Below are positions 22,953 through 64,000 of a stretch of DNA of 64,000 nt, piece after piece. Source of the stretch: a candidate division WOR-3 bacterium (GTDB taxonomy: Bacteria; Hydrothermota; Hydrothermia; Hydrothermales; JAJRUZ01). Within the stretch, counting starts at the first letter, position 1. Every line of letters begins with the position of its first letter. The stretch lies in assembly GCA_024277525.1 (NCBI GenBank), contig JAJRUZ010000021.1, positions 6,480 through 70,479 of the forward strand, given 5' to 3'. Both the position numbers and the translations under genes were made by a program. Below the pieces are notes generated by a model that was not told the origin of the DNA, searched no databases, and was given only the letters and a program-made list of their open reading frames with translations.

Positions 22953-24067
22953 TTTTTAATATCTATATCTTTAATAGGTGGTAAGACCTCTGGTTTCGGA
23001 ACTTCCTTTCCTACTTTTATATCGTTTATTTGAAGTTGTTTTAAAATTCTATCCCTTATGTTATCCGTGCATAATTTGCTGTTATAAATTGTTGATAATG
23101 ACATTAAAACCATGTTTTTAACATGCTCATCTCCTTTTTCTTCATGAATATGCGGATTTAAAGTTTCAATTTGATAGACTTCAATCTTTTCTCCGGGTAT
23201 CTGAGGTTTTCTTTCTTCAAGTATGTTTTCAAGCAAGAATACAATTTGATAAGGCTCTATTGAAAAACCTGTTGAAAATTCCATAATTTCTGCAAGCTTT
23301 ATGCTCATGGCATGTTCTCCTGCATTGCCTGTTACGATTATGTTGGTTTCAAAGCCTGTATGCTCTGCTATTAATAAATTTAAAAATCTATTCGTAATTT
23401 CACTCACTCTACCCCATTTGGAAAAATAGAGCCTTTTTTTCCTTACCTTAGGTTTGTGTCTCCAGGAAAGTCTCACCATTGTATACTCACTTTCACTCAT
23501 TAAAAAGCCTGCCGAAAAGTCTTTAACATATTCATTTACAGAACCCGGAATATAATTATCTGCATCAATGAAACCGACATATTTTTTACCGATATATTTT
23601 GCGAGTAACATCCCGACTATCATTGCTTCCCCTTTTCCGTCTTTCACAAATCCTTCCTTATCAAGGATATGTTTAAACCCTACTTTTTTAAATGCTTTAC
23701 CCAGCCCCGGATCCTTTTGATGAATTACAATTATTTTTGCATTTGTCAAAGAGTATAAATGTTTTGCAAGTTCAACTTCCATTTTGAAGTTATTGGGCGA
23801 TTCTTTCTTACTTCCCGAGACAATTATTATCGGACACTTATGAGGGATTGCTTTTAAAACACCGTCAAGCAGAAAAATTCTCTCATCTTTGGTAGGAACT
23901 ATTACAGCCAATTCTCCGAGAACTTTTGAAATTTTCTCTCTCGGAATATTACTTATTAAAGAACTTTCAACAAACTCTGTTTCACTATCAAGTTTTATAA
24001 CTTTTTGAACTTCATGAAATACCACATTACCGAATATTTCCTTATAAACTGTTGTTTCAAGTATCAT
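22892..24067 (-). CDS. mpgS: Mannosyl-3-phosphoglycerate synthase (GT55 / Osmo_MPGsynth family)
   Basis: 391 aa. Near-collinear similarity, from memory, to Pyrococcus/Thermus MpgS ([27 protein letters not shown]...[96 protein letters not shown]). Size matches Thermus MpgS. Confidence 0.75.
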
Positions 24068-52409: not shown

Positions 52410-52901
52410 ATGAAAAAAATAATTGCCATATTAACAATAATCGGAGTGATGTCCTTATACGCACAGGAAGAGAAAAAATTTGAATACATAGCGAATAAAA
52501 AATGTAAAATGTGTCATAAGGCTCAATGGAAAATATGGGAAGGTACAAAACATGCAAAAGCTTTTGAGACACTCAAATCCGAGGAATCTGCTAAAATTGC
52601 AAAAGAAATGAAAATAGAGGATGCCACTACTTCTGAAAAATGTATAACCTGCCACAAGGGATGGGATGGAGAAGAAGGAGTCGGTTGTCAGGACTGTCAC
52701 GGACCCGGTTCTGCTTATTATAAAATGTCTGTAATGAAAGACATTACTGCTGGAAAAGTAAAAGGAGAAGAAGTGGGATTGGTTAAACCGGATGAAGAAT
52801 TATGTAAAAAATGTCATAACAAAGAAAGCCCGACTTACAAAGAGTTTAAAGCAGAAGAATTCTTTAAAGAAATCGCACATCCGACACCTGAGAAAAAGTA
52901 A
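52410..52901 (+). CDS. Periplasmic tetraheme c-type cytochrome (small, 163 aa)
   Basis: Signal peptide MKKIIAILTIIGVMSLYA. Four CxxCH motifs: CKMCH, CITCH, CQDCH, CKKCH. RBS AGGAGG upstream. Confidence 0.8.
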   Translation: MKKIIAILTIIGVMSLYAQEEKKFEYIANKKCKMCHKAQWKIWEGTKHAKAFETLKSEESAKIAKEMKIEDATTSEKCITCHKGWDGEEGVGCQDCHGPGSAYYKMSVMKDITAGKVKGEEVGLVKPDEELCKKCHNKESPTYKEFKAEEFFKEIAHPTPEKK

Positions 52902-52915
52902 TTTTAAATTAAATT

Positions 52916-52945
52916 AGAGGGTTCAATCCCCTCTCAACCTTTTTA
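52916..52945 (+). terminator. Candidate terminator hairpin after the tetraheme cytochrome gene
   Basis: AGAGGG-ttcaat-CCCCTCT stem-loop followed, after 5 nt, by TTTTTACCTTTT. Confidence 0.35.
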
Positions 52946-52954
52946 CCTTTTAAA

Positions 52955-53629
52955 GTGTTTAAAAAATCTTGTATTATTTTTTTTATTATATATATTTTCT
53001 TCTTTTGTACAAAAGAAGAAAAGGGTGCTCTTCTGGATACCGGTATATTCTCTGAAAAAGAAAACATCTCTTACATAGTGCAGACGATAAAGGGAGATTC
53101 TGTCGGAGTAATTAATTTTTCTATAAACAAAGAGGGCAACTTTCTGAATTTTGTTCAAGACTTTCCTTATTCCGAGGTTAAGATGGATCTGAAGACATTA
53201 AAGCCTGTTTCTTCTTTATTCAGGATAGTTTTACCCGGAAGAGGACCCGTTGAGATAAGAACGGAATTCAAGGGGAATCAAATTAAAATGAAAGCAATTA
53301 CACCCGCAGGAGAAAGGGATACAACAATTTCGGTAAAGGACAATTTTTATCACAGTGATTTTATTTTTATGCTCCCCCGTGCTTTACCTTTTGTTGACGG
53401 AAAGACTTATGAGATAAAAAGTTTTGTCCCTATGAGAGCCCAAATATTCACCGTTAAGATAAACTTCATTGGAAAAGGGGAATTTGAGGTTAAAGGCAAA
53501 AAGATCAAGGGATATCATGTGACTTTTGACTATGATACAGAAAAACATGATGCTTATTATGAAGAGAATGCTCCCCACAGATTATTATTCTATTCAAACG
53601 GTAAATATAATCTTATAGCAAAACTATAG
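52955..53629 (+). CDS. Hypothetical lipoprotein
   Basis: 224 aa. Signal peptide with lipobox-like FFFC. Beta-rich, no recognised catalytic motif. Confidence 0.45.
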   Translation: MFKKSCIIFFIIYIFFFCTKEEKGALLDTGIFSEKENISYIVQTIKGDSVGVINFSINKEGNFLNFVQDFPYSEVKMDLKTLKPVSSLFRIVLPGRGPVEIRTEFKGNQIKMKAITPAGERDTTISVKDNFYHSDFIFMLPRALPFVDGKTYEIKSFVPMRAQIFTVKINFIGKGEFEVKGKKIKGYHVTFDYDTEKHDAYYEENAPHRLLFYSNGKYNLIAKL

Positions 53630-53740
53630 GGAAAAGAATAAATTAAAAATTTGAAGTAAAGCCTCCTTTTTGATTATAATGAATTTTTAATTTTAAATTT
53701 AGCATTATTTTAAATTTAAACAAAAAGGAGGTAATAAAAA

Positions 53741-54868
53741 ATGAAAAAACTATTAAGCCTTTTTATTATTCTCCTGGTCGGTTGTAAGGCAAAGAGTGTG
53801 AAGATAGGTGTAATTTTGCCTTTAACCGGCTCTACTGCTTCCTATGGTAAAGAGGTATTAAAGGGGATTTAACTTGCGGTATCGAATTACAATAAAACAG
53901 GTCGGAAGACCAGAGTAGAACTTTTTATATATGACAATCAAGGTTTTTCAAAAAATACTGTTGAGGGCATTAGAAAATTCGTAAAGGATGAAAATTGTAT
54001 CGCAATCATAGGTCCTGTTATTTCCAAATTGGCAATCAAAGCATCGAATGAGGCAGAGAAAGGTAAGATTCCGCTTATTACTCCTACCGCCACCCATCCT
54101 TATGTAACCCGGGACAAAAATTATACTTTCAGAGTATGTTATACGGATCCTGTTCAGGGAGAGACAATGGCAAAATTTACAATTGAAGAACTTAAAATGA
54201 AAAAAGCAGGAGTTCTTTATGAAGCAAACAATCCTTATTCCGAAGGACTTTTCAGAAAATTTTCACTACTTTTTGAAAAACTCGGAGGAAAGGTCGTGGT
54301 GAACGATTTTTATGTACAGGGAGATACCGCATTTACTGATAAGTTAGAAAAAATAAAGAAAAAAAATCCTGATGTAGTTTTCATACCAGGTTATGTTGAG
54401 GATGTGATTCATATTTTGAAAGAGGCAAAGAAAATCGGATTTACCGAACCGGTATTTTTGGGAGGAGACGGATGGCATTCTCCGCTTTTGATAGAAAAAG
54501 CAGGTTCTTTATTTGAAAAAGATATCACCGCCTATTTTACTTCTCCTTTTTTTCCAGAACTTGAAGAGAATAAAGTTAAAGATTTTATAAAAAAATATAA
54601 AGATGAATATAATGAGGAACCACAGGCATTTGCTGCACTTGCATATGATGCGGTCTCTATTGTTCTTGATGGGATAAAGAAAATTGAACATCCCACACGT
54701 GAGAAGATATTTAAATACATCAATGAACTTGAAGCATATCAAGGAGTGACAGGGAGGATAAGTTTCAAGGGCAAAAAAGACCCCTTGAGGGATGTTTACA
54801 TTTTAAGACCTACCACTTCGGGTTTTGAGCTTTATAAAAAGATTTCATCCGGTAATATAGGAGAGTAA
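53741..54868 (+). pseudogene. LivK/periplasmic-binding-protein type 1 (branched-chain amino acid ABC binding protein family), interrupted by an in-frame TAA at 53870..53872
   Basis: ATG at 53741 with RBS AAAGGAGG. Reads MKKLLSLFIILLVGCKAKSVKIGVILPLTGSTASYGKEVLKGI*LAVSNYNKTGRK...IGPVISKLAIKASNEAEKGKIPLITP..., same frame throughout, so the track ORF 54029..54868 is only the downstream part. The stop sits where family members usually have Glu (..G(I/A)ELAxxEIN..). Confidence 0.7.
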
Positions 54869-54870
54869 AA

Positions 54871-55614
54871 ATGCCGCAGCAGGTAAAACGTTTAATTGTT
54901 GTTTTTGTTGCCTTAATTCTTGTTTTCTTTGTCATAAGGAGTTTTCTCGTTCCTCCCACTTTCGGAGAATACGGACATTACAGAGCGTCTTCTGTAAAGG
55001 AAATTTTATCTCAAAATATAAAATATGCGGGTGAAGTTGTATGTGAGGAGTGTCATGATGATATTGTTGAGATAAAGTCCGGATCTTATCATAAAAGGCT
55101 TTCATGTGAAACATGTCACGGTCCTGCTTATGAACATTCTCAGGCTCCTGATGAATATACTCCTTACATTCCTTCAAAAAGGGATTATTGTTCCCTGTGT
55201 CACGGTTATAATCCTTCACGTCCTACTGGTTTTCCTCAGATAGACCCTGTAAAGCATAATCCTTTGAGACCCTGTATAAAATGCCATAATCCGCATGATC
55301 CGACACCGCCCGAGGTTCCGAAAGAATGCAAAGGATGTCATGAAGAAATTTACAGAACCAAGATTTTATCTCCTCATGCCTTACTCAATTGTACGGAATG
55401 TCACAAAGCCCCTGAGGAACACAAGATAAATCCGCGTGCCTTCAGACCCACAAAACCGAGTTCGAGAAAGTTCTGCGGTAAATGTCACAGTAAAGAAGCA
55501 AAAGTTTCAGAAGAAATTCCGAGAGTTGACATTATTTATCACGGATACGGAAACCTTTGTTGGGAATGCCATTACCCTCATTTTCCGGAAGCTCATACAA
55601 CAAAGAAGGAGTGA
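54871..55614 (+). CDS. Membrane-anchored octaheme c-type cytochrome
   Basis: 247 aa. N-terminal TM helix LIVVFVALILVFFVI. Eight CxxCH: CEECH, CETCH, CSLCH, CIKCH, CKGCH, CTECH, CGKCH, CWECH. Confidence 0.8.
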   Translation: MPQQVKRLIVVFVALILVFFVIRSFLVPPTFGEYGHYRASSVKEILSQNIKYAGEVVCEECHDDIVEIKSGSYHKRLSCETCHGPAYEHSQAPDEYTPYIPSKRDYCSLCHGYNPSRPTGFPQIDPVKHNPLRPCIKCHNPHDPTPPEVPKECKGCHEEIYRTKILSPHALLNCTECHKAPEEHKINPRAFRPTKPSSRKFCGKCHSKEAKVSEEIPRVDIIYHGYGNLCWECHYPHFPEAHTTKKE

Positions 55615-55619
55615 AATAA

Positions 55620-56390
55620 ATGGAGAGAAGGGAATTTTTGAAAAAAATTTTAAAATGGATATTTATATTGATAGGAGGAGGATTGGTCCTCAGGCTGCTT
55701 TCTGTAATAAGAAGAAAACCGGCTCCGATCGGCTCAATCTATGAAAATTACGACCCGACAGAGCATTATTATGCTATGGGAATTGATATTGAAAAATGTA
55801 TAGGATGTGGCAGATGTGCTGCTGCCTGTAAAATAGAAAATAATGTCCCTAAGGAACCTTACTTTTTCAGAACATGGGTGGAGCGATATATAATTACCGT
55901 TGATGGGGAGACATTTGTGGATAGTCCTAACGGTGGAATAGACGGTTTTCCACCCTTGGGTAGTGAAAAAGAAATATTAAGGAGTTTTTTTGTTCCCAAA
56001 CTGTGTAATCATTGTGATAATCCTCCGTGTGTTCAGGTATGTCCTGTAGGAGCAACCTATAAGACCATAGACGGAGTCATCCTGGTTGACAGTAAGTATT
56101 GTATAGGTTGCAGATACTGTATTCAAGCATGTCCTTACGGAGCCAGGTTCTTGCATCCCAAAACGAGAACGGCAGAAAAATGCACTTTTTGCTATCACAG
56201 AATCACAAAAGGACTCAAACCTGCATGTGTTGAAGTTTGTCCGACTCAGGCAAGGATATTCGGTGAAGTAAAACCGAGAAATAATCCGCTTGCAAGATTT
56301 GTTCGTATGCATAAAATAAGAGTTTTAAAGCCCTCCCTTAACACAGAACCAAAAGTTTATTATGCAAACTTAGACAAGGAGGTAACTTAA
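55620..56390 (+). CDS. Tat-exported 4x[4Fe-4S] ferredoxin-type subunit (NrfC/PsrB/HybA family)
   Basis: 256 aa. Twin-arginine motif MERREFLKK. Four Cys clusters: CIGCGRCAAAC; CNHCDNPPCVQVCP; CIGCRYCIQACP; CTFC...CVEVCP. Confidence 0.85.
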   Translation: MERREFLKKILKWIFILIGGGLVLRLLSVIRRKPAPIGSIYENYDPTEHYYAMGIDIEKCIGCGRCAAACKIENNVPKEPYFFRTWVERYIITVDGETFVDSPNGGIDGFPPLGSEKEILRSFFVPKLCNHCDNPPCVQVCPVGATYKTIDGVILVDSKYCIGCRYCIQACPYGARFLHPKTRTAEKCTFCYHRITKGLKPACVEVCPTQARIFGEVKPRNNPLARFVRMHKIRVLKPSLNTEPKVYYANLDKEVT

Positions 56391-56391
56391 G

Positions 56392-57612
56392 GTGGAAAAG
56401 TTATTGGAACAATTAGCCCTTGCCCTTAAGGAGGTAACCGGTTATATATATCCCAATGAAATAGAGTTACACTGGGGTCTCCTTATTGTGATTTATCCTT
56501 ATATTACCGGGCTTGTTGCAGGTGCCTTTATTCTTGCTTCCCTTGTGAAAGTTTTTAATGTAAAAGAGGTTGCTCCCACATACAGGCTTTCCCTTCTTAC
56601 AGCACTTGCCTTTTTATTATGTGCTCCTTTACCCTTGCTTGCACACTTGGGGCATCCGGAGCGTTCTTTTGAGATTTTCCTTACCCCTCATTTCAGCTCC
56701 GCAATGGCTATGTTCGGATTCGTATATGCCTGGTATCTGCTCGTGGTTTTGTTACTCGAAATATGGTTTGAGTACAGAAAGAGTTTTGTAATATGGAGCA
56801 GAACAGAAAAGGGTCTAAAAAAAATCCTTTATTATATTTTCACTCTCGGTTCGATGGATATTTCTGATGAGGCTGTTGAGTTTGATCATAAAGCAGCCAA
56901 ATTTATAACCGTTATAGGGATACCATCTGCTTTTCTCTTGCATGGATATGTGGGTTTTATTTTCGGATCTGTAAAGGCAAATCCATGGTGGAGCAGTGTA
57001 TTAATGCCGATAGTATTCCTGTTTTCTGCAATGGTTTCCGGAATAGCCCTTGTTTTATTTCTTTATTACATCATCACCCTCATAAGGGGAGAAAAAATTG
57101 ATATGAAATGTATGGATAAACTTGCGAGTTATCTCCTATATGCAATGATTCTTGATTTCTCACTTGAAGCCCTTGATTTCATACATCGCGTATATGAATC
57201 CGAGGAATCCATAAAAATTCTTTCAAAGTTGCTCTTCAGTAAACTTTTTGTAAGTTTGCTCATTATTCAGGTCTTACTGGGTACACTTATTCCCATGGGT
57301 CTTATAGCCTGGACGAAAATTATAAAATTACCTTCAGAACTCAGAAGGGTTATCTATTTTATTTCCGCCTTTCTGGTTCAAGTCGGTATTTTCACGACAA
57401 GATGGAATGTAGTTATCGGAGGACAGTTATTTTCAAAAAGTTTAAAAGGGCTCATGACCTATAAAGTGGAACTGATGGGAACAGAGGGGTTACTTGTCGG
57501 GATTTTCCTGCTTTTACTGCCTTTCATAATTCTTTATATATTGCTTAAACTGCTTCCGCCTTGGAAAGAGGAAGCAGAACCGGTAAAAGAATCAAAGGAA
57601 GCACATGTTTAA
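56392..57612 (+). CDS. NrfD/PsrC-family polytopic membrane protein (quinone-interacting subunit)
   Basis: 406 aa, GTG start 8 nt after AAGGAGG, ~10 TM helices. N-terminal region ...YPNEIELHWGLLIVIYPYITGLVAGAFILASL is typical of NrfD-like proteins. Directly follows the FeS subunit. Confidence 0.7.
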   Translation: MEKLLEQLALALKEVTGYIYPNEIELHWGLLIVIYPYITGLVAGAFILASLVKVFNVKEVAPTYRLSLLTALAFLLCAPLPLLAHLGHPERSFEIFLTPHFSSAMAMFGFVYAWYLLVVLLLEIWFEYRKSFVIWSRTEKGLKKILYYIFTLGSMDISDEAVEFDHKAAKFITVIGIPSAFLLHGYVGFIFGSVKANPWWSSVLMPIVFLFSAMVSGIALVLFLYYIITLIRGEKIDMKCMDKLASYLLYAMILDFSLEALDFIHRVYESEESIKILSKLLFSKLFVSLLIIQVLLGTLIPMGLIAWTKIIKLPSELRRVIYFISAFLVQVGIFTTRWNVVIGGQLFSKSLKGLMTYKVELMGTEGLLVGIFLLLLPFIILYILLKLLPPWKEEAEPVKESKEAHV

Positions 57613-58015
57613 TTTAAGAAGTATATTTAAAAAATTGTTTTTTTTCTTTATGTTCATGTGGATTCTGTTTGCAATGATTTTTTCGGTAATTTATATTAAT
57701 ATTTACGGCGGGGAAAGGGTAAGGGGTGTAAAAACCTTTAATGTTAAAGAATTCAAACCTTTTGATGTTAAGTTCTTTGCATATAAAGAGCCGATATTCA
57801 TTATTCATAAAAAGGGAGAATATCTTGTGCTTTCCGCACTCTGCACATTCAGGAGAGGGATTTTGAATTACAATGCAGAAGATAAAGTATTTGAATGTCC
57901 TGTACACGGTGAGAAATATGATTTAAACGGTAATCCATTAAATAAAAAATTACCGCCTCTTAAAAAATTTTCCTTTACCATTAAAGGAGGGGACCTCTAT
58001 GTCATTATGGAATAA
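57605..58015 (+). CDS. Degenerate Rieske-fold protein (paralog of the downstream Rieske protein, lacking 2 of 4 cluster ligands)
   Basis: 136 aa with an N-terminal TM helix. Aligns with the canonical Rieske at 61932: LSALCTFRRGIL vs FSAVCTHLGCIV; VFECPVHGEKYDLNGNPL vs EFLCPCHAGRFDANGAVI. Box I His and Cys and box II Cys are replaced. Confidence 0.55.
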   Translation: MFNLRSIFKKLFFFFMFMWILFAMIFSVIYINIYGGERVRGVKTFNVKEFKPFDVKFFAYKEPIFIIHKKGEYLVLSALCTFRRGILNYNAEDKVFECPVHGEKYDLNGNPLNKKLPPLKKFSFTIKGGDLYVIME

Positions 58016-59087
58016 AATAATAGATTGGTTGGAAAGAAGAATATCCCTCAATGAATTTATTTCCTTTATTACTTCTTTCGGTATTTTTTATACTCACATT
58101 CCTCCTGACAAGCCTGTCAAGGAAGCCATAAAGGATGCAATGGAGACAATTTCTCCCTCTTATGCAAGATGGCCTTATATGCTCGGTATTATCACTTTCC
58201 TTTTATTTTTGATTCAGGTGGTAACCGGTGTTTTGCTTTTGTTTTTTTATGTACCATCCATAGACAAAGCCTATGAAAGCACTGTTACCATAATAAGAGA
58301 TAGACCTTTCGGATTTTTTATATTTAATATTCATCACTGGACAGCAATTTTGCTTATTTGTGTTGTTCTATTCAGATTGGGAAGATTCATTTATGATAAA
58401 GTATTTTCACCTCCCAGGGAGATTTTCTGGATTCTCGGATTTTTAATTTTTATATTTGTAATACTTGAATACATTACAGGAATCCCCTTGCCTATGGATG
58501 CACAAGCAGGTTGGCTCTCCTACAGAATATTTGAAATTTTTAATCCTGCTCCATTTCTTGGGGTACTTAATCGTGTGCTTTTCGGTGCCATTAAATTCGG
58601 AGATGTTTTCATTTTAAGAAATTATATCTTGCATGTCTTTGTTTTCCCCCTTGTTGTATTTTTCCTGTTTTATATCCATTTTCTTTCTGTAAGAAAAGTC
58701 GGATTGAGTTACGGTAAAATGTCTTTAAAGTCTCCCTTTCCCGGTTATTTCTTTGAAATTCTGATTACAATATTTATAACCTTCGGAGTAGTTTTTACCC
58801 TTGCAACTCTGTTTCCCAGAGCAATATTTCAAGAATTTGTACCTTACAAAAATTACACCCAATTTAAAGTTCCTTTCTTTTTGCTTTTCTTTGATTTCTT
58901 AAGAGATAAATTACCCCTTACCCTTTATTCTATCATTTTTACACTTTTTATAATTCTTCCTTTCTTTTTACCTTGGATTGATCGTTCTGCTCCTGTTCCC
59001 CTCATAAAAAAACCCGTTGCTTTTATTTTGTATTTCGGAGGTCTACTTATTATAATAGTAATTTCGGTAATGGGATTAAGGGTATGA
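57999..59087 (+). CDS. Cytochrome b (bc1/b6-type), divergent copy
   Basis: 362 aa. Conserved PREIFWILGF, helix-D His pair (ILHVF...YIHFLSVRK). In helix B only the first His (NIHHW) is kept. The position of the second ligand is Arg/Leu (VVLFRLGRF) rather than His. Confidence 0.75.
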   Translation: MSLWNKIIDWLERRISLNEFISFITSFGIFYTHIPPDKPVKEAIKDAMETISPSYARWPYMLGIITFLLFLIQVVTGVLLLFFYVPSIDKAYESTVTIIRDRPFGFFIFNIHHWTAILLICVVLFRLGRFIYDKVFSPPREIFWILGFLIFIFVILEYITGIPLPMDAQAGWLSYRIFEIFNPAPFLGVLNRVLFGAIKFGDVFILRNYILHVFVFPLVVFFLFYIHFLSVRKVGLSYGKMSLKSPFPGYFFEILITIFITFGVVFTLATLFPRAIFQEFVPYKNYTQFKVPFFLLFFDFLRDKLPLTLYSIIFTLFIILPFFLPWIDRSAPVPLIKKPVAFILYFGGLLIIIVISVMGLRV

Positions 59088-60226
59088 TGGATTTATTTTT
59101 TACTATTTTTTTGATAACTGTCTCTCCTGATTCTACGAAATGTTTTTTATGTCACAGTGAAATAAGGGCTCAATATAAGAACAGTGTTCATTATAGTGAA
59201 GAGATAATTTGTAGTGATTGTCACGGAGGAAATTCTTTTACCACTGATATGAAAAAGGCTCACGGAGGAAACTTCATAGGGATCCCCGGAAAAAGAAAAA
59301 TACTTAAAGTGTGTTCAAATTGTCACTCATCAGCAGATAAAATGGCTCCTTATGGAGTCCCTTTTAATCAGGAAGCACTTTATTTGATGTCTGCTCACGG
59401 TAAGTTGCTCTTAAAAGGTAAGAATATTCAAAATATTCCTGTATGTTCGGATTGTCATGATTATCATGATGTGAGAAAGGTCAGTGATAAATATTCACCT
59501 GCAAATAAAATGAATATTCATAAAACCTGCGGAGTCTGTCATGAGAGTGAGGAAAAAAAGTATAAAAACAGTATTCATTACTACTATTTGATCCAAAAAG
59601 GAGATTTAAGTTCTCCTACCTGTATTGATTGTCACGGAAGTCACGGTGCATATCCTCCGGGTTATAAAGATATTGATAAAATATGCGGAAAATGTCATCA
59701 GCTTGTGAGAAAGTATTTTATAAGCGGTATTCATTACAAACCTTTTATAGAGACCGGTCTGAAAGAATGTGAAGCATGTCACGGTAATCACGAAGTTAAA
59801 GAAAAGTCGTTGGAGCTTTGGGATAGAACATGCACGGGTTGTCATTCCGAAAAAGAAGAGGCAATAAGGGTTTCTCAGGAGATTAAAATTTTTCTTAAAG
59901 AAACATATGAAAGTTATGAAGAGGCAAATGAATGGGTAAAAAAAATAGAGAAAATACCGCTTGAAGTTGTTGATTTAAAAAACAGGTTGGAAGATGCAAG
60001 AATAGATATGGAAGCGAATCTCGGAATTACCCATCTTTTCTCCGTAGAGGAGGTTAAAAAAGAAATAGAAAAATATAAGGGAGTATTTGACGATGTGAAA
60101 CATGAAGCAGTTTACAAATTCAAGTTGTTTCAGACGAGGTATCTTCTTATCCCGATTTTATGGTTTATGATTTTTGTAACAATATTCTTAATAATAGAGG
60201 TCAGAAGAGGCGTGAAGAAAGAATGA
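59084..60226 (+). CDS. Nonaheme c-type cytochrome with C-terminal TM anchor
   Basis: 380 aa. Nine CxxCH: CFLCH, CSDCH, CSNCH, CSDCH, CGVCH, CIDCH, CGKCH, CEACH, CTGCH. C-terminal helix LLIPILWFMIFVTIFLIIEV. Start ATGA overlaps the cytochrome b stop. Confidence 0.8.
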   Translation: MMDLFFTIFLITVSPDSTKCFLCHSEIRAQYKNSVHYSEEIICSDCHGGNSFTTDMKKAHGGNFIGIPGKRKILKVCSNCHSSADKMAPYGVPFNQEALYLMSAHGKLLLKGKNIQNIPVCSDCHDYHDVRKVSDKYSPANKMNIHKTCGVCHESEEKKYKNSIHYYYLIQKGDLSSPTCIDCHGSHGAYPPGYKDIDKICGKCHQLVRKYFISGIHYKPFIETGLKECEACHGNHEVKEKSLELWDRTCTGCHSEKEEAIRVSQEIKIFLKETYESYEEANEWVKKIEKIPLEVVDLKNRLEDARIDMEANLGITHLFSVEEVKKEIEKYKGVFDDVKHEAVYKFKLFQTRYLLIPILWFMIFVTIFLIIEVRRGVKKE

Positions 60227-61916
60227 GAATTATTTCTATCAGGAAATTTTCTCCTTATTTGCTTACTTTCTTTGTTTTAATAGCGACACTTTTTGTTGTT
60301 GTTATTTTTATGTTTCAAGTTACTTCTCAGCCTGCTTTTTGCGGTTCCTGTCATGTTATGAGACCTTATTATGAATCATGGAAAACTTCGACTCATAACG
60401 GTATACCATGTGTGGAGTGTCATATCCCGCCCGGAATTACATCCGAATTCAGGAAAAATATGAAGCCCTTGCAATGGTGGCAAGGTACTTCACCGGGACT
60501 TACGGAACAAACCCTTGGACAGAGGTTGAGGATGCAGCTTGTTTGAGATGTCATGAAAAAAGGCTACTTTCCGGAAAGGTCATTTTTAAAAATGTTTTAT
60601 TTGACCATTCTCCGCATTTAACACAGTTAAGAAGGGGGAAGAAGCTGAGATGTACTTCCTGTCATTCACAAATTGTTCAGGGAGCTCATATTAAGGTAAC
60701 AGAGGGTACATGTTTTTTATGTCATTTTAAAGAAGCGGAACTCGGAAAAGGAACCGCAAGATGTACAATCTGTCATGAAACCCCGAAAAAAGAAATAAAA
60801 ATAGGAACCTTTTCTTTTAATCATTCGGATGTGGTGAAGTATGATATGGATTGTTTGATGTGCCATGCACATTCGGTGGAAGGGGAAGGGAATGTACCGA
60901 AAGAGAGGTGCTTTACATGTCACAATGAACCGGAAAGAGTAGCCGAATATGGAAAAATAACCGAATTACATCAAATTCATGTTACAGAACATAAAGTGGA
61001 GTGTTTAAACTGTCATCAGGAGATTTATCACGGTCCGCCCAAAGAAATAGAGGAGGTTGTGAAAACTCCTTGCAGTTCATGCCATTTGAGGGGACATTCT
61101 CCTCAAAAAGACCTTTACATGGGAATAGGAGGGAAAGGTGTAACTCCTTTGCCTTCTGTTATGTTTCTTTCGGGTGTGAGATGTGAAGGATGTCATATTC
61201 TTGAAGCAGATAAAACCGGAATTAAAAAATCAGGACCCTTTTCATGTATGAACTGTCACGGAGCTTCTTATTATAAGATATATTTAGAATGGAAAAAGGC
61301 GATTGAAGAAAGAGTTAAAAAGACAGAAGAAATTTTAAAAAAGGCGAAGAAAATTATAGGAACTTCAAAATTATTGAATGATGCCTATTACAATCTTAAC
61401 CTTGTTAAAAAAGGACACGGAATTCATAATGTTTTATACTCAGAAATGTTGCTCTCAAAATCAATTGAGTTTGTGAATGAGGAATTAAAGAAAAAGGGTA
61501 AAAAACCCTTTGAAAAACCTTTTAGAACACTTTCTCCTTCTTATAAGGTATGCATAAGGTGTCATTACGGTATTGAAGAAAAAATCAAGGACTTTTTCGG
61601 GATAAAATTTAAACATTATGTTCATGTTTCGGGCAAAAAATTTGATTGTTTGGTTTGTCATAATGAAAATCCTGAAGGAAAACCCCATATGATGACCAAA
61701 TTTAAAACAAAAAAAGATTGCTTTAAATGTCATCATAGGAAAAAGATAAAGAGAAAATGCATAAGCTGTCATACCGACATTTTAAAAAGGGCTTTAGCTT
61801 TTAAAGATAAAAAATTTTCCCACAGTTTACATTATAAAGAGATGGATATCTCATGCAATGATTGTCATTCGGAATCCGGAGCATTAAAGAAGAATTTCTG
61901 CACAGAATGTCATTAA
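60223..61916 (+). pseudogene. NapC/NirT(NrfH)-type membrane-anchored multiheme cytochrome c with ~18 CxxCH, split by a frameshift between ~60408 and 60546 (authentic or sequencing error)
   Basis: N-terminal part (ATG 60223, ATGA overlap with the upstream stop) encodes TM helix + FCGSCHVMRPYYESWKTSTHNGIPCVECH, typical of the NapC/NirT N-terminus, then ends at 60546. The remaining 16 CxxCH motifs continue from 60408 in a different frame. Both frames are open across the junction, which contains homopolymers (aaaaa, ccc). Confidence 0.7.
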
Positions 61917-61931
61917 AAAGGAGGAATAAAA

Positions 61932-62372
61932 ATGGATAAAAAAATGACACGAAGAAAATTTCTTGGAAAATTAGTAGCAGGAATCTTGGGTGGAACAATT
62001 GCTTTATTTACCGCACCGATAGCATTTTATCTTTTACCCAAAAAGGAGAAGAAAAAACTTAACATTTTTGTTGATCCCAAGGGCAATCCTATACCGGAGA
62101 GTTCGATAAAGGAAGGAGATTATGAGCTCGGACTTTCTGATGAAGGTCCTGTTATAATAGTGAGAAGGGAGGGTGTATTATATGCTTTTTCTGCCGTATG
62201 TACACACTTAGGATGTATAGTAAAGTGGATTCCATCCAGGAATGAATTTTTATGTCCCTGTCATGCAGGAAGATTTGATGCGAACGGTGCGGTAATTTCC
62301 GGTCCTCCTCCGGCTCCCCTTAAAAGGTACAAAATTGAAATCACATCCGAGGGTTTTATAATACTTTCTTAA
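61932..62372 (+). CDS. Rieske [2Fe-2S] iron-sulfur protein (Tat signal)
   Basis: 146 aa. MDKKMTRRKFLGKL twin-arginine motif. Box I CTHLGC, box II CPCHAG. Confidence 0.85.
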   Translation: MDKKMTRRKFLGKLVAGILGGTIALFTAPIAFYLLPKKEKKKLNIFVDPKGNPIPESSIKEGDYELGLSDEGPVIIVRREGVLYAFSAVCTHLGCIVKWIPSRNEFLCPCHAGRFDANGAVISGPPPAPLKRYKIEITSEGFIILS

Positions 62373-62392
62373 ATTTCATCCGGAGGAATAAA

Positions 62393-63445
62393 ATGAACAA
62401 AATATTAAAAGCAATAGATGAGAGGTTGAAATTGTCAGAACTTTATGAAAAATACCTTTCGGGATATATGGTTCCCGGAAATCTCAATTTTTGGTATTGT
62501 TTAGGCTCTGTGCTTATTGTGATATTCTCAATTCAGATTATAACGGGTATTTTGCTTTTGATGTATTACATTCCTTCTGTTGATAAGGCATTTGAAAGCG
62601 TCATGTATATTACGAACAAGGTACCTTTCGGATGGCTTATAAGAAGGGTTCATGCCGTGGGTGCGAATCTCTTTGTTCTCGTTCTTTTCTTTCACATGTT
62701 TTCGGTATTGATAATGGGTTCTTATAAAAAACCGCGGGAAATTCACTGGATAACGGGTTGTCTTCTTTTTGCACTTGTTCTCGTAGAGTGTTTATCCGGT
62801 TATCTCTTACCTTGGAGTCAATTGTCCTATTGGGCAACAACCGTAGCAACGAACTTTCCGGGTGCATTCCCTTTCATAGGTGATTTTCTTGTTTATGTAA
62901 TAAGGGGAGGGGAGAAGGTTACCCAGCTTACACTCGGAAGGTTCTTTTCAATTCATGTATCTTTGATTCCGTTTACAATTTTTATTTTGATAGCAATTCA
63001 TATATTTGTGATAAGAAGGACAGGTATTTCCTTTCCTCCGGGGACGGACGAGACCAAGGTTAAAAAAATTCCGTTTTTCCCGCATTTTGTGCTCGAAGAT
63101 TTAAAGGTAATCTATATATTTCTTGCGATTATGTTTTTGATTGTTTTCTTTTATCCGCAATTTGTTTTGCCGAGAGATGCTTTGATACCCGCTGATCCCC
63201 TCTCAACTCCGGAACATATAAAACCCGAATGGTATTTTCTTGCAAATTATCAATTTTTAAAATTGATTCCGAATGAATTTCTCGGTATCTTTCTTCAACT
63301 TATAATTGCTGTTATCATTTTTTTACTCCCTTTTATTGACAGAACACCCGAAAGGAGAATATGGAAAAGACCGGTATTTTTCGGAATCGTAATATTTGGT
63401 ATAATTTTTTATGTCCTGCTAACAATATGGGGGTATATATCATGA
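62393..63445 (+). CDS. Cytochrome b (bc1/b6-type), canonical copy
   Basis: 350 aa. Both His pairs present (RRVHAVGA...FFHMF; FSIHVSLIP...AIHIFVIRR). PREIHWITG, LPWSQLSYWATTVATN, PEWYFL. Confidence 0.9.
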   Translation: MNKILKAIDERLKLSELYEKYLSGYMVPGNLNFWYCLGSVLIVIFSIQIITGILLLMYYIPSVDKAFESVMYITNKVPFGWLIRRVHAVGANLFVLVLFFHMFSVLIMGSYKKPREIHWITGCLLFALVLVECLSGYLLPWSQLSYWATTVATNFPGAFPFIGDFLVYVIRGGEKVTQLTLGRFFSIHVSLIPFTIFILIAIHIFVIRRTGISFPPGTDETKVKKIPFFPHFVLEDLKVIYIFLAIMFLIVFFYPQFVLPRDALIPADPLSTPEHIKPEWYFLANYQFLKLIPNEFLGIFLQLIIAVIIFLLPFIDRTPERRIWKRPVFFGIVIFGIIFYVLLTIWGYIS

Positions 63446-64000
63446 AAAAAGTAAAATTTTTAATTATTTTATTTTTCATTTTCGGATTTTATGATATCTT
63501 AAATGCAAAAAAGGAGAATGTTTGTATAGAGTGTCATCTTGAAACCGGAGAAGAGAGTTTAATGAAACCTGTGGAAGAATGGAGAAAAAGTGTGCATTCG
63601 GAAAATGGGATTTCATGTCATCATTGCCACGGAGGGGATCCGAATGACGAAGATATAGCAATGGCTCCTGAGGCAGGATTTATTGGTGTTCCCGAATATG
63701 AGGAAATTCCAGAATTTTGCGGGAAATGTCATATAGGAGTTAAGGAGAATTACTTAAAAAGTGCACATGGCAAAACACTTCCGGATGGTCCTAACTGTGT
63801 AACCTGTCATACCGCACATAATCAAAAAAAAGCCGGTGTTTATCTTATCAATAAAGAGTTATGTTCTCAATGTCATTCCTATGAAAGAGCGGAGAAAATA
63901 AAATTTGCCCTTTTGAGCACCGAAAAGACGATATCCTCTCTTTCAAAAAGAATTGATAATTTATGGACAAACGGATTTGATGCTGAGCAGATGAGAAAAA
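63442..64000 (+). CDS. Multiheme c-type cytochrome (at least 5 CxxCH in the visible part), 3' end outside the window
   Basis: ATG at 63442 overlapping the cytochrome b stop (ATGA). Signal peptide MKKVKFLIILFFIFGFYDILNA, then CIECH, CHHCH, CGKCH, CVTCH, CSQCH. Not in the ORF track because it is not closed. Confidence 0.75.
   Translation, partial: MKKVKFLIILFFIFGFYDILNAKKENVCIECHLETGEESLMKPVEEWRKSVHSENGISCHHCHGGDPNDEDIAMAPEAGFIGVPEYEEIPEFCGKCHIGVKENYLKSAHGKTLPDGPNCVTCHTAHNQKKAGVYLINKELCSQCHSYERAEKIKFALLSTEKTISSLSKRIDNLWTNGFDAEQMRK

What the first reader, a model, noticed from the sequence alone, without database searches (positions are those of the whole stretch)
52410..64000. Dense electron-transport supercluster: at least 44 heme-c motifs, an NrfC/NrfD-type module and two Rieske/cytochrome b modules in ~11.5 kb
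Eleven co-oriented, mostly overlapping or translationally coupled genes encode the following: (1) a tetraheme cytochrome; (2) an octaheme TM-anchored cytochrome; (3) a Tat-exported 4x[4Fe-4S] NrfC-like subunit; (4) an NrfD-like quinone-site membrane subunit; (5) a degenerate Rieske-like protein; (6) a cytochrome b; (7) a nonaheme cytochrome; (8) an ~18-heme NapC/NirT-type cytochrome; (9) a Rieske protein; (10) a cytochrome b; (11) a further multiheme cytochrome continuing beyond the window. Combining NrfCD/ActBC-type and bc-type quinol oxidoreductase modules with high-heme-count cytochromes in one locus resembles the machinery for extracellular or periplasmic electron transfer (Geobacter Cbc-type, anammox-type bc complexes), but this arrangement does not match any named complex. 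No terminal reductase or oxidase catalytic subunit is visible, so the physiological acceptor is open.
Basis: partly seen in the sequence, partly recalled or inferred. Interest (0 to 1): 0.8.

Follow-up and report, generated by a model that had tools for sequence, protein, structure and literature searches.

The report
Modular quinol-to-multiheme cytochrome respiratory island
An uncultured hot-spring bacterium (candidate division WOR-3) carries one 11.6-kb operon-like block of three membrane modules that probably move electrons from the quinone pool into a 44-heme cytochrome network; the parts are known kinds, but one module is an unusual stripped-down relative of the cytochrome bc complex.

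Summary
Window 52410-64000 (+) carries exactly 44 CxxCH motifs (4+8+9+18+5), against two in the rest of the window. It also has an NrfC/NrfD pair and two Rieske/cytochrome b pairs. Corrections: two non-redox genes are interleaved. These are a DUF3108-like lipoprotein and a periplasmic binding protein with an in-frame TAA. The 18-heme gene is broken by a 1-nt deletion specific to this window.

The block is three separable modules:
- A: octaheme + 4x[4Fe-4S] + ActC-like 10-helix NrfD subunit, the same subunit composition as Geobacter Cbc4.
- B: Rieske-like + cytochrome b + 9-heme + NrfH-headed 18-heme protein.
- C: canonical b6-type Rieske/cytochrome b + pentaheme.

WOR-3 relatives keep these modules together but in different orders. 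Module A and the module B four-gene set both recur across many phyla.

In this lineage module B is degenerate. The Rieske lacks a cluster ligand, the disulfide cysteines and the Tat motif. Cytochrome b has Arg in place of a heme bH histidine. Both genes are under purifying selection.

Most likely function: menaquinol:multiheme-cytochrome oxidoreductases feeding periplasmic or extracellular acceptors. The acceptor and the direction of flow are not established.

Verdict: a new variant of a known kind; interest moderate.

The parts
52410..52901 (+). g1: secreted tetraheme cytochrome c (163 aa), probable soluble periplasmic carrier
   Evidence: It has 4 CxxCH and hits Pfam Cytochrome_C554 at 1.7e-12. 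The N-terminus MKKIIAILTIIGVMSLYAQ is signal-like. Homologs lie in the same island in WOR-3 relatives.
52916..52934 (+). Terminator-like hairpin after g1
   Evidence: A 6-bp stem with 4 GC pairs, followed by a T-rich tail. It is the only convincing + strand site in the block.
   Evidence: Pfam DUF3108 at 2.5e-4, below the family cut-off. Homologs follow g1 in L060, L125 and L128.
53741..54868 (+). Orphan periplasmic binding protein (Peripla_BP_6) with an in-frame TAA at 53870-53872
   Evidence: Pfam Peripla_BP_6 at 1.1e-36 on the 54029-54868 part. The upstream part is in the same frame and reads ...KGI*LAV.... Intact copies are translationally coupled inside the island in relatives.
54871..55614 (+). 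g2, module A: octaheme cytochrome c with an N-terminal membrane anchor
   Evidence: It has 8 CxxCH and a TM segment at residues 9-27. The 8-heme family is conserved in Acidobacteriota, Planctomycetota, Aminicenantes and Zixibacteria. The 4-heme form in some WOR-3 genomes corresponds to its N-terminal half.
55620..56390 (+). g3, module A: Tat-exported 4x[4Fe-4S] NrfC/PsrB-type subunit
   Evidence: Pfam Fer4_11 at 9.5e-29. The best solved relative is Thermus PsrB, 2vpw_B, at 1.3e-50. No NCBIfam equivalog cut-off is reached: TtrB 221 against 416, DsrO 180 against 200.
56392..57612 (+). g4, module A: NrfD-family membrane subunit of the 10-helix ActC type
   Evidence: Pfam NrfD at 1e-39. The AF2 model (pTM 0.76) matches ActC of alternative complex III best: 8k9e_C with TM-score 0.72 over 392 columns, against 0.34 for the shorter (250-residue) PsrC.
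57605..58015 (+). g5, module B: Rieske-fold membrane protein that has lost cluster ligands and the Tat motif
   Evidence: Pfam Rieske at 33.7 bits. Box I is CTFRRG instead of CTHxGC, box II is CPVH instead of CPCH, and there is no twin-arginine. The same changes occur in L060, L001, L062, L125 and L128. dN/dS is 0.15-0.19 for the two pairs whose dS is below 1, and up to 0.35 for more saturated pairs.
57999..59087 (+). g6, module B: fused b6/subunit-IV-type cytochrome b with the helix-B heme bH histidine replaced by Arg, and PEWY replaced by VPFF
   Evidence: Pfam Cytochrome_B at 9.8e-27. It matches solved cytochrome b6 at 1.9e-28. His to Arg is found in 16 of 16 nearest homologs. L064 and L002 have lost both bH histidines. 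dN/dS is 0.06-0.17.
59084..60226 (+). g7, module B: nonaheme cytochrome c with a helical stalk and C-terminal membrane anchor, in the gene position of cytochrome c1
   Evidence: It has 9 CxxCH and a TM segment at residues 353-371. It lies next to the cytochrome b gene in the many loci where the four-gene set is intact.
60223..61916 (+). g8, module B: 18-heme cytochrome with an N-terminal NrfH/NapC-type quinol-dehydrogenase head. It is frameshifted here at the A5 run 60454-60458.
   Evidence: Adding one A gives a 564-aa protein with 18 CxxCH. Homologs read ...SEFRKKYEALA... across the site, and all 10 relatives have A6 or A7 there. Residues 23-95 match NrfH 2j7a_C, residues 212-435 match OcwA 6i5b, and the fold search hits NrfH. 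The CxxCHxM first-heme motif is kept in 115 of 120 homologs, and 114 of 120 have 18 hemes.
61932..62372 (+). g9, module C: canonical Rieske protein
   Evidence: It has CTHLGC and CPCHAG and an MTRRKF twin-arginine. Pfam Rieske at 4.4e-13. The b6f PetC NCBIfam model scores 91 bits, below its cut-off.
62393..63445 (+). g10, module C: b6-type cytochrome b fused to subunit IV
   Evidence: All four heme histidines, PEWY and the Cys of the b6f/Firmicute heme ci site (WYCLG) are present. Pfam Cytochrome_B at 2.6e-59 and Cytochrom_B_C at 4.2e-20. ExtP scores 205 bits against a cut-off of 290.
63442..64000 (+). g11, module C: multiheme cytochrome c, with 5 CxxCH before the window ends
   Evidence: Frame translation and Pfam cytochrome c3/c7. 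The 73%-identical homolog in L058 is 265 aa with 5 hemes, a helical stalk and a C-terminal TM helix, and it is followed by unrelated genes.

Best explanation
The block is a respiratory island of three inner-membrane modules plus a soluble tetraheme carrier.

**Module A (g2-g4).**
- The ActC-like NrfD subunit binds menaquinol.
- Electrons pass through the periplasmic 4x[4Fe-4S] subunit to a membrane-anchored octaheme cytochrome.
- Its subunit composition is that of Geobacter Cbc4 (CbcSTU).

**Module B (g5-g8).**
- It derives from a Rieske/cytochrome b complex whose c1-position subunit is a C-terminally anchored nonaheme cytochrome.
- It also carries an 18-heme cytochrome anchored by an NrfH/NapC-type quinol-dehydrogenase head.
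- In this WOR-3 sublineage the Rieske has lost its [2Fe-2S] site and cytochrome b has lost a heme bH ligand.
- Bifurcating Q-cycle chemistry is therefore unlikely. I infer that quinol enters mainly through the NrfH-like head, and perhaps a remnant Qo/bL site, and that the bc remnant serves as a membrane scaffold.

**Module C (g9-g11).** It is a complete b6-type Rieske/cytochrome b complex with a pentaheme in the c1 position, able to run a Q cycle.

Together the modules connect the quinone pool to about 44 periplasm-facing hemes. Those hemes hand electrons to periplasmic carriers such as g1, and onward to an acceptor that the window does not encode.

**Shown:** gene content, cofactor motifs, topology signals, module conservation and module shuffling.

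**Inferred:** direction of flow (quinol oxidation), which subunits assemble together, and the acceptor.
For: - Domain and motif assignments.
- The g4 model matches ActC best, and g3 is closest to PsrB.
- g8 has an NrfH-like head with a CxxCHxM first heme, conserved in 115 of 120 homologs.
- g9/g10 have the full set of bc/b6 cofactor ligands, whereas g5/g6 lack them in at least 6 genomes while evolving under purifying selection.
- The set Rieske, cytochrome b, 9-heme, 17/18-heme recurs in WOR-3, Acidobacteriota, Fraserbacteria, Bipolaricaulota, Binatia, Margulisiibacteriota, Zixibacteria, Ignavibacteria, Gemmatimonadota and Planctomycetota. At least 32 of 71 loci with enough upstream sequence have it in full.
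- Module A is a stand-alone three-gene unit in Acidobacteriota. It sits beside module-B genes in Planctomycetota and Aminicenantes.
- In the Aminicenantes locus both modules lie next to ResB/CcsA and an outer-membrane beta-barrel flanked by multiheme cytochromes.
- WOR-3 relatives keep A, B, C and g1 together in four different orders.
- Published descriptions of the analogous Geobacter and Melioribacter modules call them quinol:cytochrome c oxidoreductases.
- The host is diderm: TonB-dependent receptor, TolC-like OEP and heptosyltransferase.
Against: - No biochemical or genetic data exist for any of these proteins.
- No NCBIfam equivalog cut-off is reached.
- No outer-membrane conduit, terminal reductase or cytochrome-maturation gene is in the window.
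- In the closest relative the island ends after g11 with unrelated genes.
- g8 is frameshifted and the binding-protein gene has a stop codon in this sequence, so module B may be inactive in this organism if those lesions are real.
- Physical association of subunits within and between modules is inferred from gene order only.
- The multiheme AF2 model was of limited quality (pLDDT 70), and only its NrfH head gave a fold match.
Confidence: 0.6

Rival explanations
1. The same hardware runs in the opposite direction. Electrons taken up from an external or periplasmic donor, such as Fe(II), reduced sulfur, a partner cell or a mineral, enter the multiheme network. The modules then deliver them to the quinone pool, with module C or A using the membrane potential for the uphill steps.
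For: - A PetAB/multiheme/Mtr-like cluster in Zixibacteria RBG-1 was interpreted in the literature as more likely Fe(II)-oxidising.
- bc-type complexes and NrfD-type complexes are reversible in principle (established knowledge).
- No terminal reductase is encoded nearby.
Against: - No oxidase, Cyc2-type protein or other donor-side enzyme is seen in the window or in the relatives' loci.
- The NrfH/NapC head of g8 and Cbc4-type modules are described as quinol dehydrogenases in known systems.
Confidence: 0.17
2. The multiheme proteins themselves are terminal reductases for a soluble or periplasmic substrate, for example nitrite or hydroxylamine, sulfur oxyanions, or selenite/tellurite. On this reading the island is a self-contained respiration pathway rather than a gateway to extracellular acceptors.
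For: - Residues 212-435 of g8 align with OcwA, a member of the NrfA/octaheme reductase lineage.
- g10 and g6 score against the ExtP model of the Geobacter selenite/tellurite operon.
- Relatives carry ExtKL-like and ExtS-like genes next to module C.
- Closest relatives have a VIT1 iron-exporter gene in the island.
Against: - There is no CxxCK or other recognised catalytic heme motif.
- g8 has 19 non-motif histidines for 18 hemes, consistent with mostly bis-His electron-transfer hemes.
- All Ext-family scores are far below cut-off.
- The molybdopterin protein in the closest relative is QrcB-like, not a recognisable reductase.
Confidence: 0.13
3. In this particular organism the island, or at least module B, is decaying and non-functional: a frameshift in g8, a stop in the binding protein, and a degenerate Rieske and cytochrome b.
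For: - A window-specific 1-nt deletion in g8.
- An in-frame TAA in the binding-protein gene.
- Compared with its closest relative (L060/L058), the window lacks the 9-heme/CYTB561 module and the Qrc-like module that lie between B and C there; other WOR-3 relatives also carry the 9-heme/CYTB561 module.
Against: - An identical kind of lesion (TAA where GAA is expected) interrupts the essential cysteinyl-tRNA synthetase gene elsewhere in the window. That points to sequence errors rather than gene decay.
- The Rieske and cytochrome b changes are shared by at least 6 genomes and are under purifying selection.
- All other genes are intact.
Confidence: 0.1

Closest known systems
Geobacter sulfurreducens Cbc4 (CbcSTU; GSU0068-0070)
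   Same: It has three subunits: a membrane-anchored multiheme cytochrome c, a periplasmic protein with four [4Fe-4S] clusters, and an integral membrane subunit. It is proposed to be a menaquinol:cytochrome c oxidoreductase. Module A has the same composition and gene order. WOR-3 relatives even have a tetraheme version of g2.
   Different: The window's cytochrome has 8 hemes, not 4. Orthology with CbcS/T/U was not tested because no Geobacter sequences were available. The role of Cbc4 itself is unknown. Module A belongs to a very conserved family spread over many phyla.
Geobacter Cbc6 / ExtMNOPQS cluster (GSU2930-2935)
   Same: It combines a Rieske protein and a b6-type cytochrome b with several high-heme-count cytochromes c (12-, 10- and 4- or 2-heme, depending on the source) instead of a monoheme c1. 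It was proposed as a quinol oxidation site. g10 and g6 give their second-best and best NCBIfam hits respectively to the ExtP model.
   Different: The scores are below the ExtP cut-off: 205 and 132 against 290. Gene order and heme counts differ (9+18, and 5). g7 and g8 gave no NCBIfam hit to any Ext model; whether ExtM/ExtN models exist in that library is not known. The ExtKL-like gene seen in relatives is absent here. Module B has degenerate Rieske and cytochrome b subunits.
Alternative complex III (ActABCDEF)
   Same: The g4 model superposes best on ActC, the 10-helix quinol-binding subunit. ACIII also has a periplasmic FeS subunit and a membrane-anchored multiheme cytochrome.
   Different: There is no molybdopterin-like ActB1 domain, no second NrfD-like subunit (ActF), and no ActD or ActE. 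g3 is closer to PsrB than to ActB: 1.3e-50 against 2.9e-20.
NrfH/NapC/CymA-type tetraheme quinol dehydrogenases, including ImcH-type fusions
   Same: The g8 N-terminus has one TM helix followed by CxxCHxM and matches NrfH in both sequence and fold.
   Different: It is fused to 14 further hemes, including an OcwA/NrfA-like block and c3/c7-like blocks. It is usually encoded with a Rieske/cytochrome b pair and a nonaheme cytochrome.
Cytochrome b6f / Firmicute-type b6c complexes
   Same: g9/g10 have the canonical Rieske motifs, four heme histidines, PEWY, b6-type His spacing and the Cys of the heme ci site.
   Different: Cytochrome b6 and subunit IV are fused. The c subunit is a C-terminally anchored pentaheme rather than cytochrome f or a diheme c.
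Melioribacter/MBNT15-type FeS + NrfD + multiheme complexes and Desulfovibrio Ohc/Nhc complexes
   Same: These are described as CISM-derived modules in which a multiheme cytochrome replaces the molybdopterin subunit and acts as a quinol:acceptor reductase. The Ohc/Nhc composition (octa- or nonaheme + FeS + NrfD-like) is recalled from my own knowledge and was not checked here.
   Different: No sequence comparison with those proteins was possible. g7 shows no significant similarity to any solved multiheme cytochrome beyond weak c3 hits.

Membership tests
Alternative complex III | 10-helix ActC-type NrfD-family quinol subunit | tested here: met
   The g4 AF2 model matches ActC 8k9e_C with TM-score 0.72 at E 6e-8. 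ActF and PsrC match less well.
Alternative complex III | ActB with a molybdopterin-like domain, plus ActF, ActD and ActE | tested here: not met
   g3 is a 256-aa FeS-only protein. No second NrfD gene, monoheme gene or molybdopterin-domain gene is in 52-64 kb.
Qrc (QrcABCD) | QrcB molybdopterin-like subunit with QrcA, QrcC and QrcD | tested here: not met
   It is absent from the window. g3 scores QrcC 106 against a cut-off of 400. A Qrc-like set (below cut-offs) does exist in the closest relative, L058.
Nrf nitrite reductase (NrfABCD / NrfHA) | NrfA with a CxxCK catalytic heme | tested here: not met
   There is no CxxCK in any ORF. The NrfC and NrfD models score far below cut-off.
NapC/NirT/NrfH quinol dehydrogenases | N-terminal TM helix plus a tetraheme head whose first heme is CxxCHxM | tested here: met
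   Pfam Cytochrom_NNT at 2.1e-11, NrfH 2j7a_C at 2.9e-7, Foldseek probability 1.00, and the CGSCHVM motif. The whole protein is a much larger fusion, so it is a member at domain level only.
Geobacter Cbc4 (CbcSTU) | Anchored multiheme c + 4x[4Fe-4S] protein + integral membrane subunit in one operon | tested here: met
   The composition and order of g2-g3-g4 match the published description. Orthology was not tested.
Geobacter Cbc6/Ext | ExtP-type cytochrome b (NCBIfam NF040969) | tested here: not met
   g10 scores 205 bits and g6 132 bits against a cut-off of 290.
Rieske/cytochrome b complexes (bc1/b6f), module C | Rieske CxHxGC and CxCH boxes with a Tat signal, four heme b histidines, and a PEWY-type Qo motif | tested here: met
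   g9 has CTHLGC, CPCHAG and an RR motif. g10 has H87, H101, H188, H203, PEWY, and Cys36 for heme ci.
Rieske/cytochrome b complexes (bc1/b6f), module B | The same features as for module C | tested here: not met
   g5 has CTFRRG and CPVH and no RR motif. g6 has Arg at the helix-B bH position and VPFF instead of PEWY. The folds are retained.
Anammox-type bc complexes | Rieske/cytochrome b with an HAO-like octaheme and/or NAD(P) oxidoreductase subunits | tested here: not met
   No such Pfam or NCBIfam hits were found for any gene of the block.
Complex iron-sulfur molybdoenzymes (Psr/Ttr/Arr) | Molybdopterin catalytic subunit next to the FeS and NrfD subunits | tested here: not met
   There is no molybdopterin-domain ORF in 52-64 kb. 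The g2 cytochrome gene lies immediately upstream of the FeS gene, where a catalytic subunit would be encoded in a Psr-type operon.
Porin-cytochrome extracellular conduits (Mtr/Pcc) | Outer-membrane beta-barrel with a partner multiheme cytochrome | tested here: not met
   None is present in the block; only 10 of the upstream genes were run against Pfam. One is present beside modules A and B in the Aminicenantes locus L132. The rest of this genome could not be examined.

The most novel reading that the evidence does not exclude
Module B of this WOR-3 sublineage may be a previously unrecognised class of respiratory complex. On this reading it is a bc-derived membrane core that has given up the Rieske cluster, heme bH and the Q cycle. 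The core is kept under selection as a scaffold that docks a NrfH-type quinol dehydrogenase and 27 c-type hemes, possibly together with the translationally coupled ActC-type module A. The result would be one long, non-bifurcating, periplasm-spanning electron wire.
Probability: 0.2. Interest if true: 0.75.

Novelty: new variant of a known kind. Interest (0 to 1): 0.5.

Why it matters
- Quinol:multiheme-cytochrome modules are the least understood step of extracellular and periplasmic electron transfer. Even in Geobacter, the roles of Cbc3, Cbc4 and Cbc6 are unknown.
- Two of the modules here belong to large families that are conserved across many uncultured phyla. The g8 family had 2456 proteins at E<=1e-5 among 7329 word-prefiltered candidates. 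They carry only generic annotations.
- The recurring four-gene set (Rieske, cytochrome b, 9-heme, 18-heme) is a defined target for structural and biochemical work.
- The WOR-3 lineage offers a natural experiment in which the Rieske cluster and a heme bH ligand have been lost while the proteins are retained. That bears on how bc complexes evolve into, or from, non-bifurcating electron-transfer scaffolds.
- It also suggests that thermophilic WOR-3 bacteria, usually described as fermenters, have an extensive cytochrome-based respiratory capacity.

Tried and rejected
1. **Reading beyond nt 64000.** Exact-protein look-ups of g10 and of the window's own g8 fragment found no retrievable contig, although the collection records a 74,133-bp NCBI contig. 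I used the closest relative instead.
2. **Look-up of a relative's gene.** The metagenome scan solved this (L060).
3. **Recent horizontal transfer of NrfCD.** I suspected it because the aa identity to L060 is 99%/92%, against 50-70% for neighbouring genes. I rejected it because nucleotide identity is only 82%, so this is strong purifying selection and not recent transfer.
4. **Shared frameshift in g8.** I suspected that L125 and L126 share the g8 frameshift, which could have meant programmed slippage or phase variation. I rejected it: their reading frames are continuous and only the called start differs.
5. **PDB sequence searches.** g4 gave nothing, either as a single sequence or as a profile. 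g7 gave only marginal c3 hits.
6. **AF2 model of the 18-heme protein.** It was mediocre, and only its NrfH head was informative.
7. **Promoter and terminator scan.** Counts were near those of shuffled sequence for promoters, and about twice the shuffle mean (roughly 2 sd) for terminator-like sites, most of them weak or on the minus strand. Only the hairpin after g1 is usable.
8. **Literature searches.** I searched for a named description of the Rieske, cytochrome b, 9-heme, 18-heme set, and for WOR-3 multiheme clusters. Nothing specific turned up.

Full report
**1. What is in the sequence**

The + strand of window 52410-64000 carries 13 co-oriented genes.

Counting CxxCH per ORF gives:
- 4 in 52410-52901
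- 8 in 54871-55614
- 9 in 59084-60226
- 2+16 in 60160-60546 and 60408-61916
- 5 in the open frame that starts at 63442 and runs off the window

A six-frame scan of all 64 kb finds 45 such motifs on the + strand of 52-64 kb and two anywhere else, so the density is not chance.

Pfam assigns every heme-rich ORF to cytochrome c554/c7/c3-type families. It assigns the other ORFs as follows:

| Coordinates | Assignment |
|---|---|
| 55620-56390 | four-cluster ferredoxins (Fer4_11) |
| 56392-57612 | NrfD (137 bits) |
| 57605-58015 and 61932-62372 | Rieske |
| 57999-59087 and 62393-63445 | cytochrome b |
| 60160-60546 | NapC/NirT N-terminal region |

No NCBIfam equivalog cut-off is reached by any protein.

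All cytochromes have a signal peptide or a single membrane anchor. The FeS protein and the second Rieske protein have twin-arginine motifs.

**2. Corrections to the observation**

- Two genes were overlooked: a DUF3108-like lipoprotein (52955-53629) and a Peripla_BP_6 binding protein (53741-54868).
- The binding-protein gene has an in-frame TAA at 53870-53872, reading KGI*LAV.
- The 18-heme protein is encoded in two frames.
  - Inserting one A into the A5 run at 60454-60458 restores a 564-aa protein with 18 hemes.
  - Its 120 best homologs read ...CHIPPGITSEFRKKYEALA... across the junction.
  - All ten relatives inspected have A6 or A7 at that site.
- A second TAA standing where GAA is expected interrupts the cysteinyl-tRNA synthetase gene at about 4.5 kb. 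Because an essential gene is hit in the same way, I regard all three lesions as probable sequence or assembly errors. Only the reads can settle this.

From the binding-protein gene to the last gene, neighbours overlap or are at most 21 nt apart. Gene 1 is followed by the hairpin at 52916-52934.

**3. Source organism**

- The window's own proteins are recorded on a 74,133-bp NCBI contig. That contig could not be fetched.
- The nearest relatives are MAGs labelled candidate division WOR-3; their isolate codes resemble hot-spring site names, which is my reading and was not checked.
- The window also encodes a TonB-dependent receptor, a TolC-like OEP, a heptosyltransferase, a protein with a T9SS sorting domain, and mannosyl-3-phosphoglycerate synthase.
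- This fits a diderm bacterium; the MPG synthase suggests thermophily, which is my inference. GC content is about 33%.

**4. The block is three modules**

I compared the window's proteins with ORFs in 120+ related loci. Three recurring units emerge.

*Module A: octaheme (g2), FeS protein (g3), NrfD-like subunit (g4).*
- It is a stand-alone three-gene unit in an Acidobacteriota contig.
- It lies beside module-B genes in Planctomycetota and Aminicenantes.
- The octaheme is conserved with 8 hemes across these phyla. Some WOR-3 genomes keep only its N-terminal 4-heme half.
The 120 listed are about 70-76% identical to g4 across phyla.
- The g4 AF2 model (pTM 0.76) superposes best on ActC of alternative complex III, with TM-score 0.72. 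The shorter (250-residue) PsrC gives 0.34.
- g3 is closest to Thermus PsrB.

*Module B: Rieske (g5), cytochrome b (g6), 9-heme (g7), 17/18-heme NapC-headed protein (g8).*
- It recurs in WOR-3, Acidobacteriota, Fraserbacteria, Bipolaricaulota, Binatia, Margulisiibacteriota, Zixibacteria, Ignavibacteria, Gemmatimonadota and Planctomycetota.
- At least 32 of 71 loci with enough upstream sequence have the complete set by a crude gene caller.
- g8 has 2456 homologs at E<=1e-5 among the 7329 word-prefiltered candidates that were scored. Of the best 120, 114 have exactly 18 hemes and 115 keep a CxxCHxM first heme.
- Residues 23-95 of g8 match NrfH in sequence and fold. Residues 212-435 match OcwA, the Thermincola surface nonaheme reductase. 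The C-terminus is c3-like.

*Module C: Rieske (g9), cytochrome b (g10), multiheme (g11).*
- In the closest relative the g11 homolog is 265 aa with five hemes, a helical stalk and a C-terminal anchor.
- There the island ends, and an aminotransferase and an aldo-keto reductase follow.

**5. Module shuffling**

The same modules stay together in WOR-3 genomes but in different orders:

| Locus | Order |
|---|---|
| Window | g1, gA, PBP, A, B, C |
| L060+L058, one 403-kb JGI contig (closest relative: g8 70%, g10 88% aa identity) | A, g1, gA, VIT1, B, D, Qrc-like set, chaperone, cytochrome c, PBP, ExtKL-like, C |
| L126/L127 | PBP, ExtKL-like, C, A, g1, PBP, PBP, B, D |
| L125/L128 | g1, gA, VIT1, B, D |
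| L002, L005, L063-65 | g1, PBP, PBP, A (4-heme form), B, D |

Module D is 9-heme, CYTB561, 9-heme, CYTB561, 18-heme (NapC-type), then a 16-heme protein fused to CYTB561. The window lacks it. Relatives therefore reach about 87 hemes in one locus.

Persistent co-location despite rearrangement argues for functional linkage. It also argues against a single fixed "supercomplex operon".

The very high aa identity of NrfC/NrfD to L060 (99% and 92%) reflects purifying selection, not recent transfer. Nucleotide identity there is 82%, against 69-75% for the other segments.

**6. The degenerate bc core**

*Canonical pair, g9/g10.*
- The Rieske protein has CTHLGC, CPCHAG and an RR signal.
- Cytochrome b has all four heme histidines, PEWY, b6-type His spacing and the Cys of the heme ci site.

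*Degenerate pair, g5/g6.*
- g5 has CTFRRG and CPVH. One His ligand and both disulfide cysteines are lost, and there is no twin-arginine.
- Loss of the Tat motif argues that no cofactor is inserted before export.
- The same state is found in L060, L001, L062, L125 and L128/129.
- More distant WOR-3 genomes (L063-65, L002, L005, L126) keep a canonical Rieske.
- In g6 the second helix-B histidine is Arg, and this holds in all 16 nearest homologs. By homology to bc1 this residue is a heme bH ligand.
- L064 and L002 have lost both bH histidines.
- PEWY has become VPFF.

*Selection and rarity.*
- Both genes are under purifying selection. For g5, dN/dS is 0.15-0.19 for the two pairs whose dS is below 1, and up to 0.35 for more saturated pairs. 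For g6 it is 0.06-0.17.
- Among the 150 nearest Rieske-fold cluster representatives in 1.84 billion proteins, 131 have both canonical boxes. Of the other 19, seven, counting g5 itself, lack the first box-I histidine.

**7. How it most likely works**

*Shown:* the composition, cofactor motifs, topology and conservation described above.

*Inferred:*
- Module A takes electrons from menaquinol at the ActC-like subunit. It passes them through four [4Fe-4S] clusters to the anchored octaheme. This is the scheme proposed for Geobacter Cbc4 (CbcSTU) and for FeS/NrfD/multiheme complexes of Melioribacter and MBNT15.
- Module C is a complete b6-type complex that can run a Q cycle and reduce its pentaheme.
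- Module B in other phyla is a canonical Rieske/cytochrome b core whose c1-position subunit is the C-terminally anchored nonaheme protein. The NrfH-headed 18-heme protein is an additional anchored wire and possibly a second quinol entry.
- In this WOR-3 sublineage, quinol most probably enters through the NrfH-like head, because the Rieske cluster and a bH ligand are missing. The bc remnant then serves as a scaffold.
- The tetraheme g1 is a likely soluble carrier.

*Acceptor.*
- The acceptor is not encoded here.
- The only contextual hint comes from the Aminicenantes locus L132. There, modules A and B lie next to ResB/CcsA and a 704-aa outer-membrane beta-barrel flanked by MtrA-like and other multiheme cytochromes.
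- A VIT1 iron-exporter gene also sits in the island of the closest relatives.

I put 0.6 on the quinol-to-periplasmic/extracellular gateway reading. The lower-weighted alternatives are the reverse direction, a self-contained soluble-substrate respiration, and decay of the island in this organism.

**8. Comparison with known systems**

- The closest named systems are Geobacter Cbc4 for module A and Cbc6/ExtMNOPQS for the Rieske/cytochrome b plus multiheme modules.
- Membership at equivalog level fails for ExtP: 205 and 132 bits against a cut-off of 290.
- ACIII, Qrc, Nrf, CISM reductases and anammox-type bc complexes each fail at least one defining feature. See the membership table.
- A PetAB plus multiheme cluster had been noted in Zixibacteria RBG-1.
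- I found no paper that names or characterises the four-gene set, or that describes multiheme islands in WOR-3.

**9. Verdict**

It is not a categorically new system.

It is an island of three known kinds of quinone-to-cytochrome modules, in a lineage where they had not been described. Two features are worth follow-up:
- a widely distributed but uncharacterised four-gene bc/27-heme module;
- a selected, cluster-less Rieske together with a bH-ligand-less cytochrome b variant of that module.

Interest is moderate (0.5). Novelty: new variant of a known kind.

Noticed in passing
window 4442-4503 (minus strand), 53870-53872, 60454-60458: There are three gene-disrupting lesions in 64 kb. An in-frame TAA stands where Glu/GAA is expected in cysteinyl-tRNA synthetase (KEG*PFF) and in the binding protein (KGI*LAV). 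A 1-nt deletion sits in an A-run of the 18-heme gene. Two identical G-to-T-type changes, one in an essential gene, suggest sequence or assembly errors.
   Followed up: partly
window 53741-54868; L002 2993-5139; L063 605-2802; L126 7398-9598; L058 7236-8354: Orphan Peripla_BP_6 (LivK-like) binding proteins are conserved inside the multiheme islands of WOR-3 relatives. They are often present as two translationally coupled copies, and no ABC permease or ATPase was seen among the adjacent genes. Their role in an electron-transfer locus is unexplained.
   Followed up: partly
L060 2990-3868; L125 8675-9553; L128 6462-7340: A VIT1-family (iron exporter-like) membrane protein gene sits between the DUF3108-like gene and the Rieske-like gene in the closest relatives. 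The window has the binding protein and module A at that position instead.
   Followed up: partly
L060 8195-15688; L001 4179-11697; L064 11490-19087; L125-L128: WOR-3 relatives carry a further conserved module that the window lacks: 9-heme, CYTB561 (FdnI/HydC-type b), 9-heme, CYTB561, 18-heme NapC-type, then a 16-heme protein fused to CYTB561. The fusions are reminiscent of Geobacter CbcL and CbcBA.
   Followed up: partly
L058 812-6086: The closest relative has a Qrc-like set between modules B and C: a QrcA-like pentaheme, a QrcB-like molybdopterin protein, a QrcC-like FeS protein and an NrfD-like subunit, all below the NCBIfam cut-offs, plus a NarJ-type chaperone. It is absent from the window.
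   Followed up: partly
L132 8318-15181 (Aminicenantes GCA_012974965.1): ResB/CcsA cytochrome maturation genes lie next to modules A and B. So does a 704-aa outer-membrane beta-barrel flanked by a Paired_CXXCH (MtrA-like) cytochrome and a Multi-haem_cyto cytochrome. This may be a porin-cytochrome conduit.
   Followed up: partly
window 22892-24067 and 5192-7408: A mannosyl-3-phosphoglycerate synthase (Pfam 2e-152) is present; this enzyme makes a compatible solute I associate with thermophiles. A BNR/sortilin-like protein with a T9SS C-terminal sorting domain is also present. I read both as fitting a thermophilic relative of the FCB group.
   Followed up: no
P0137-P0145 (homologs of window 57999-59087): The His-to-Arg replacement at the helix-B heme bH position extends to a wider clade of cytochromes b (34-38% identity, PPWY/PPWF Qo motifs). 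At least one of them shares its longest-contig length (11,734 bp) and sources with a g8 homolog, P0067, so it may lie on the same contig. The conserved Arg hints at a modified n-side heme site rather than simple loss.
   Followed up: partly
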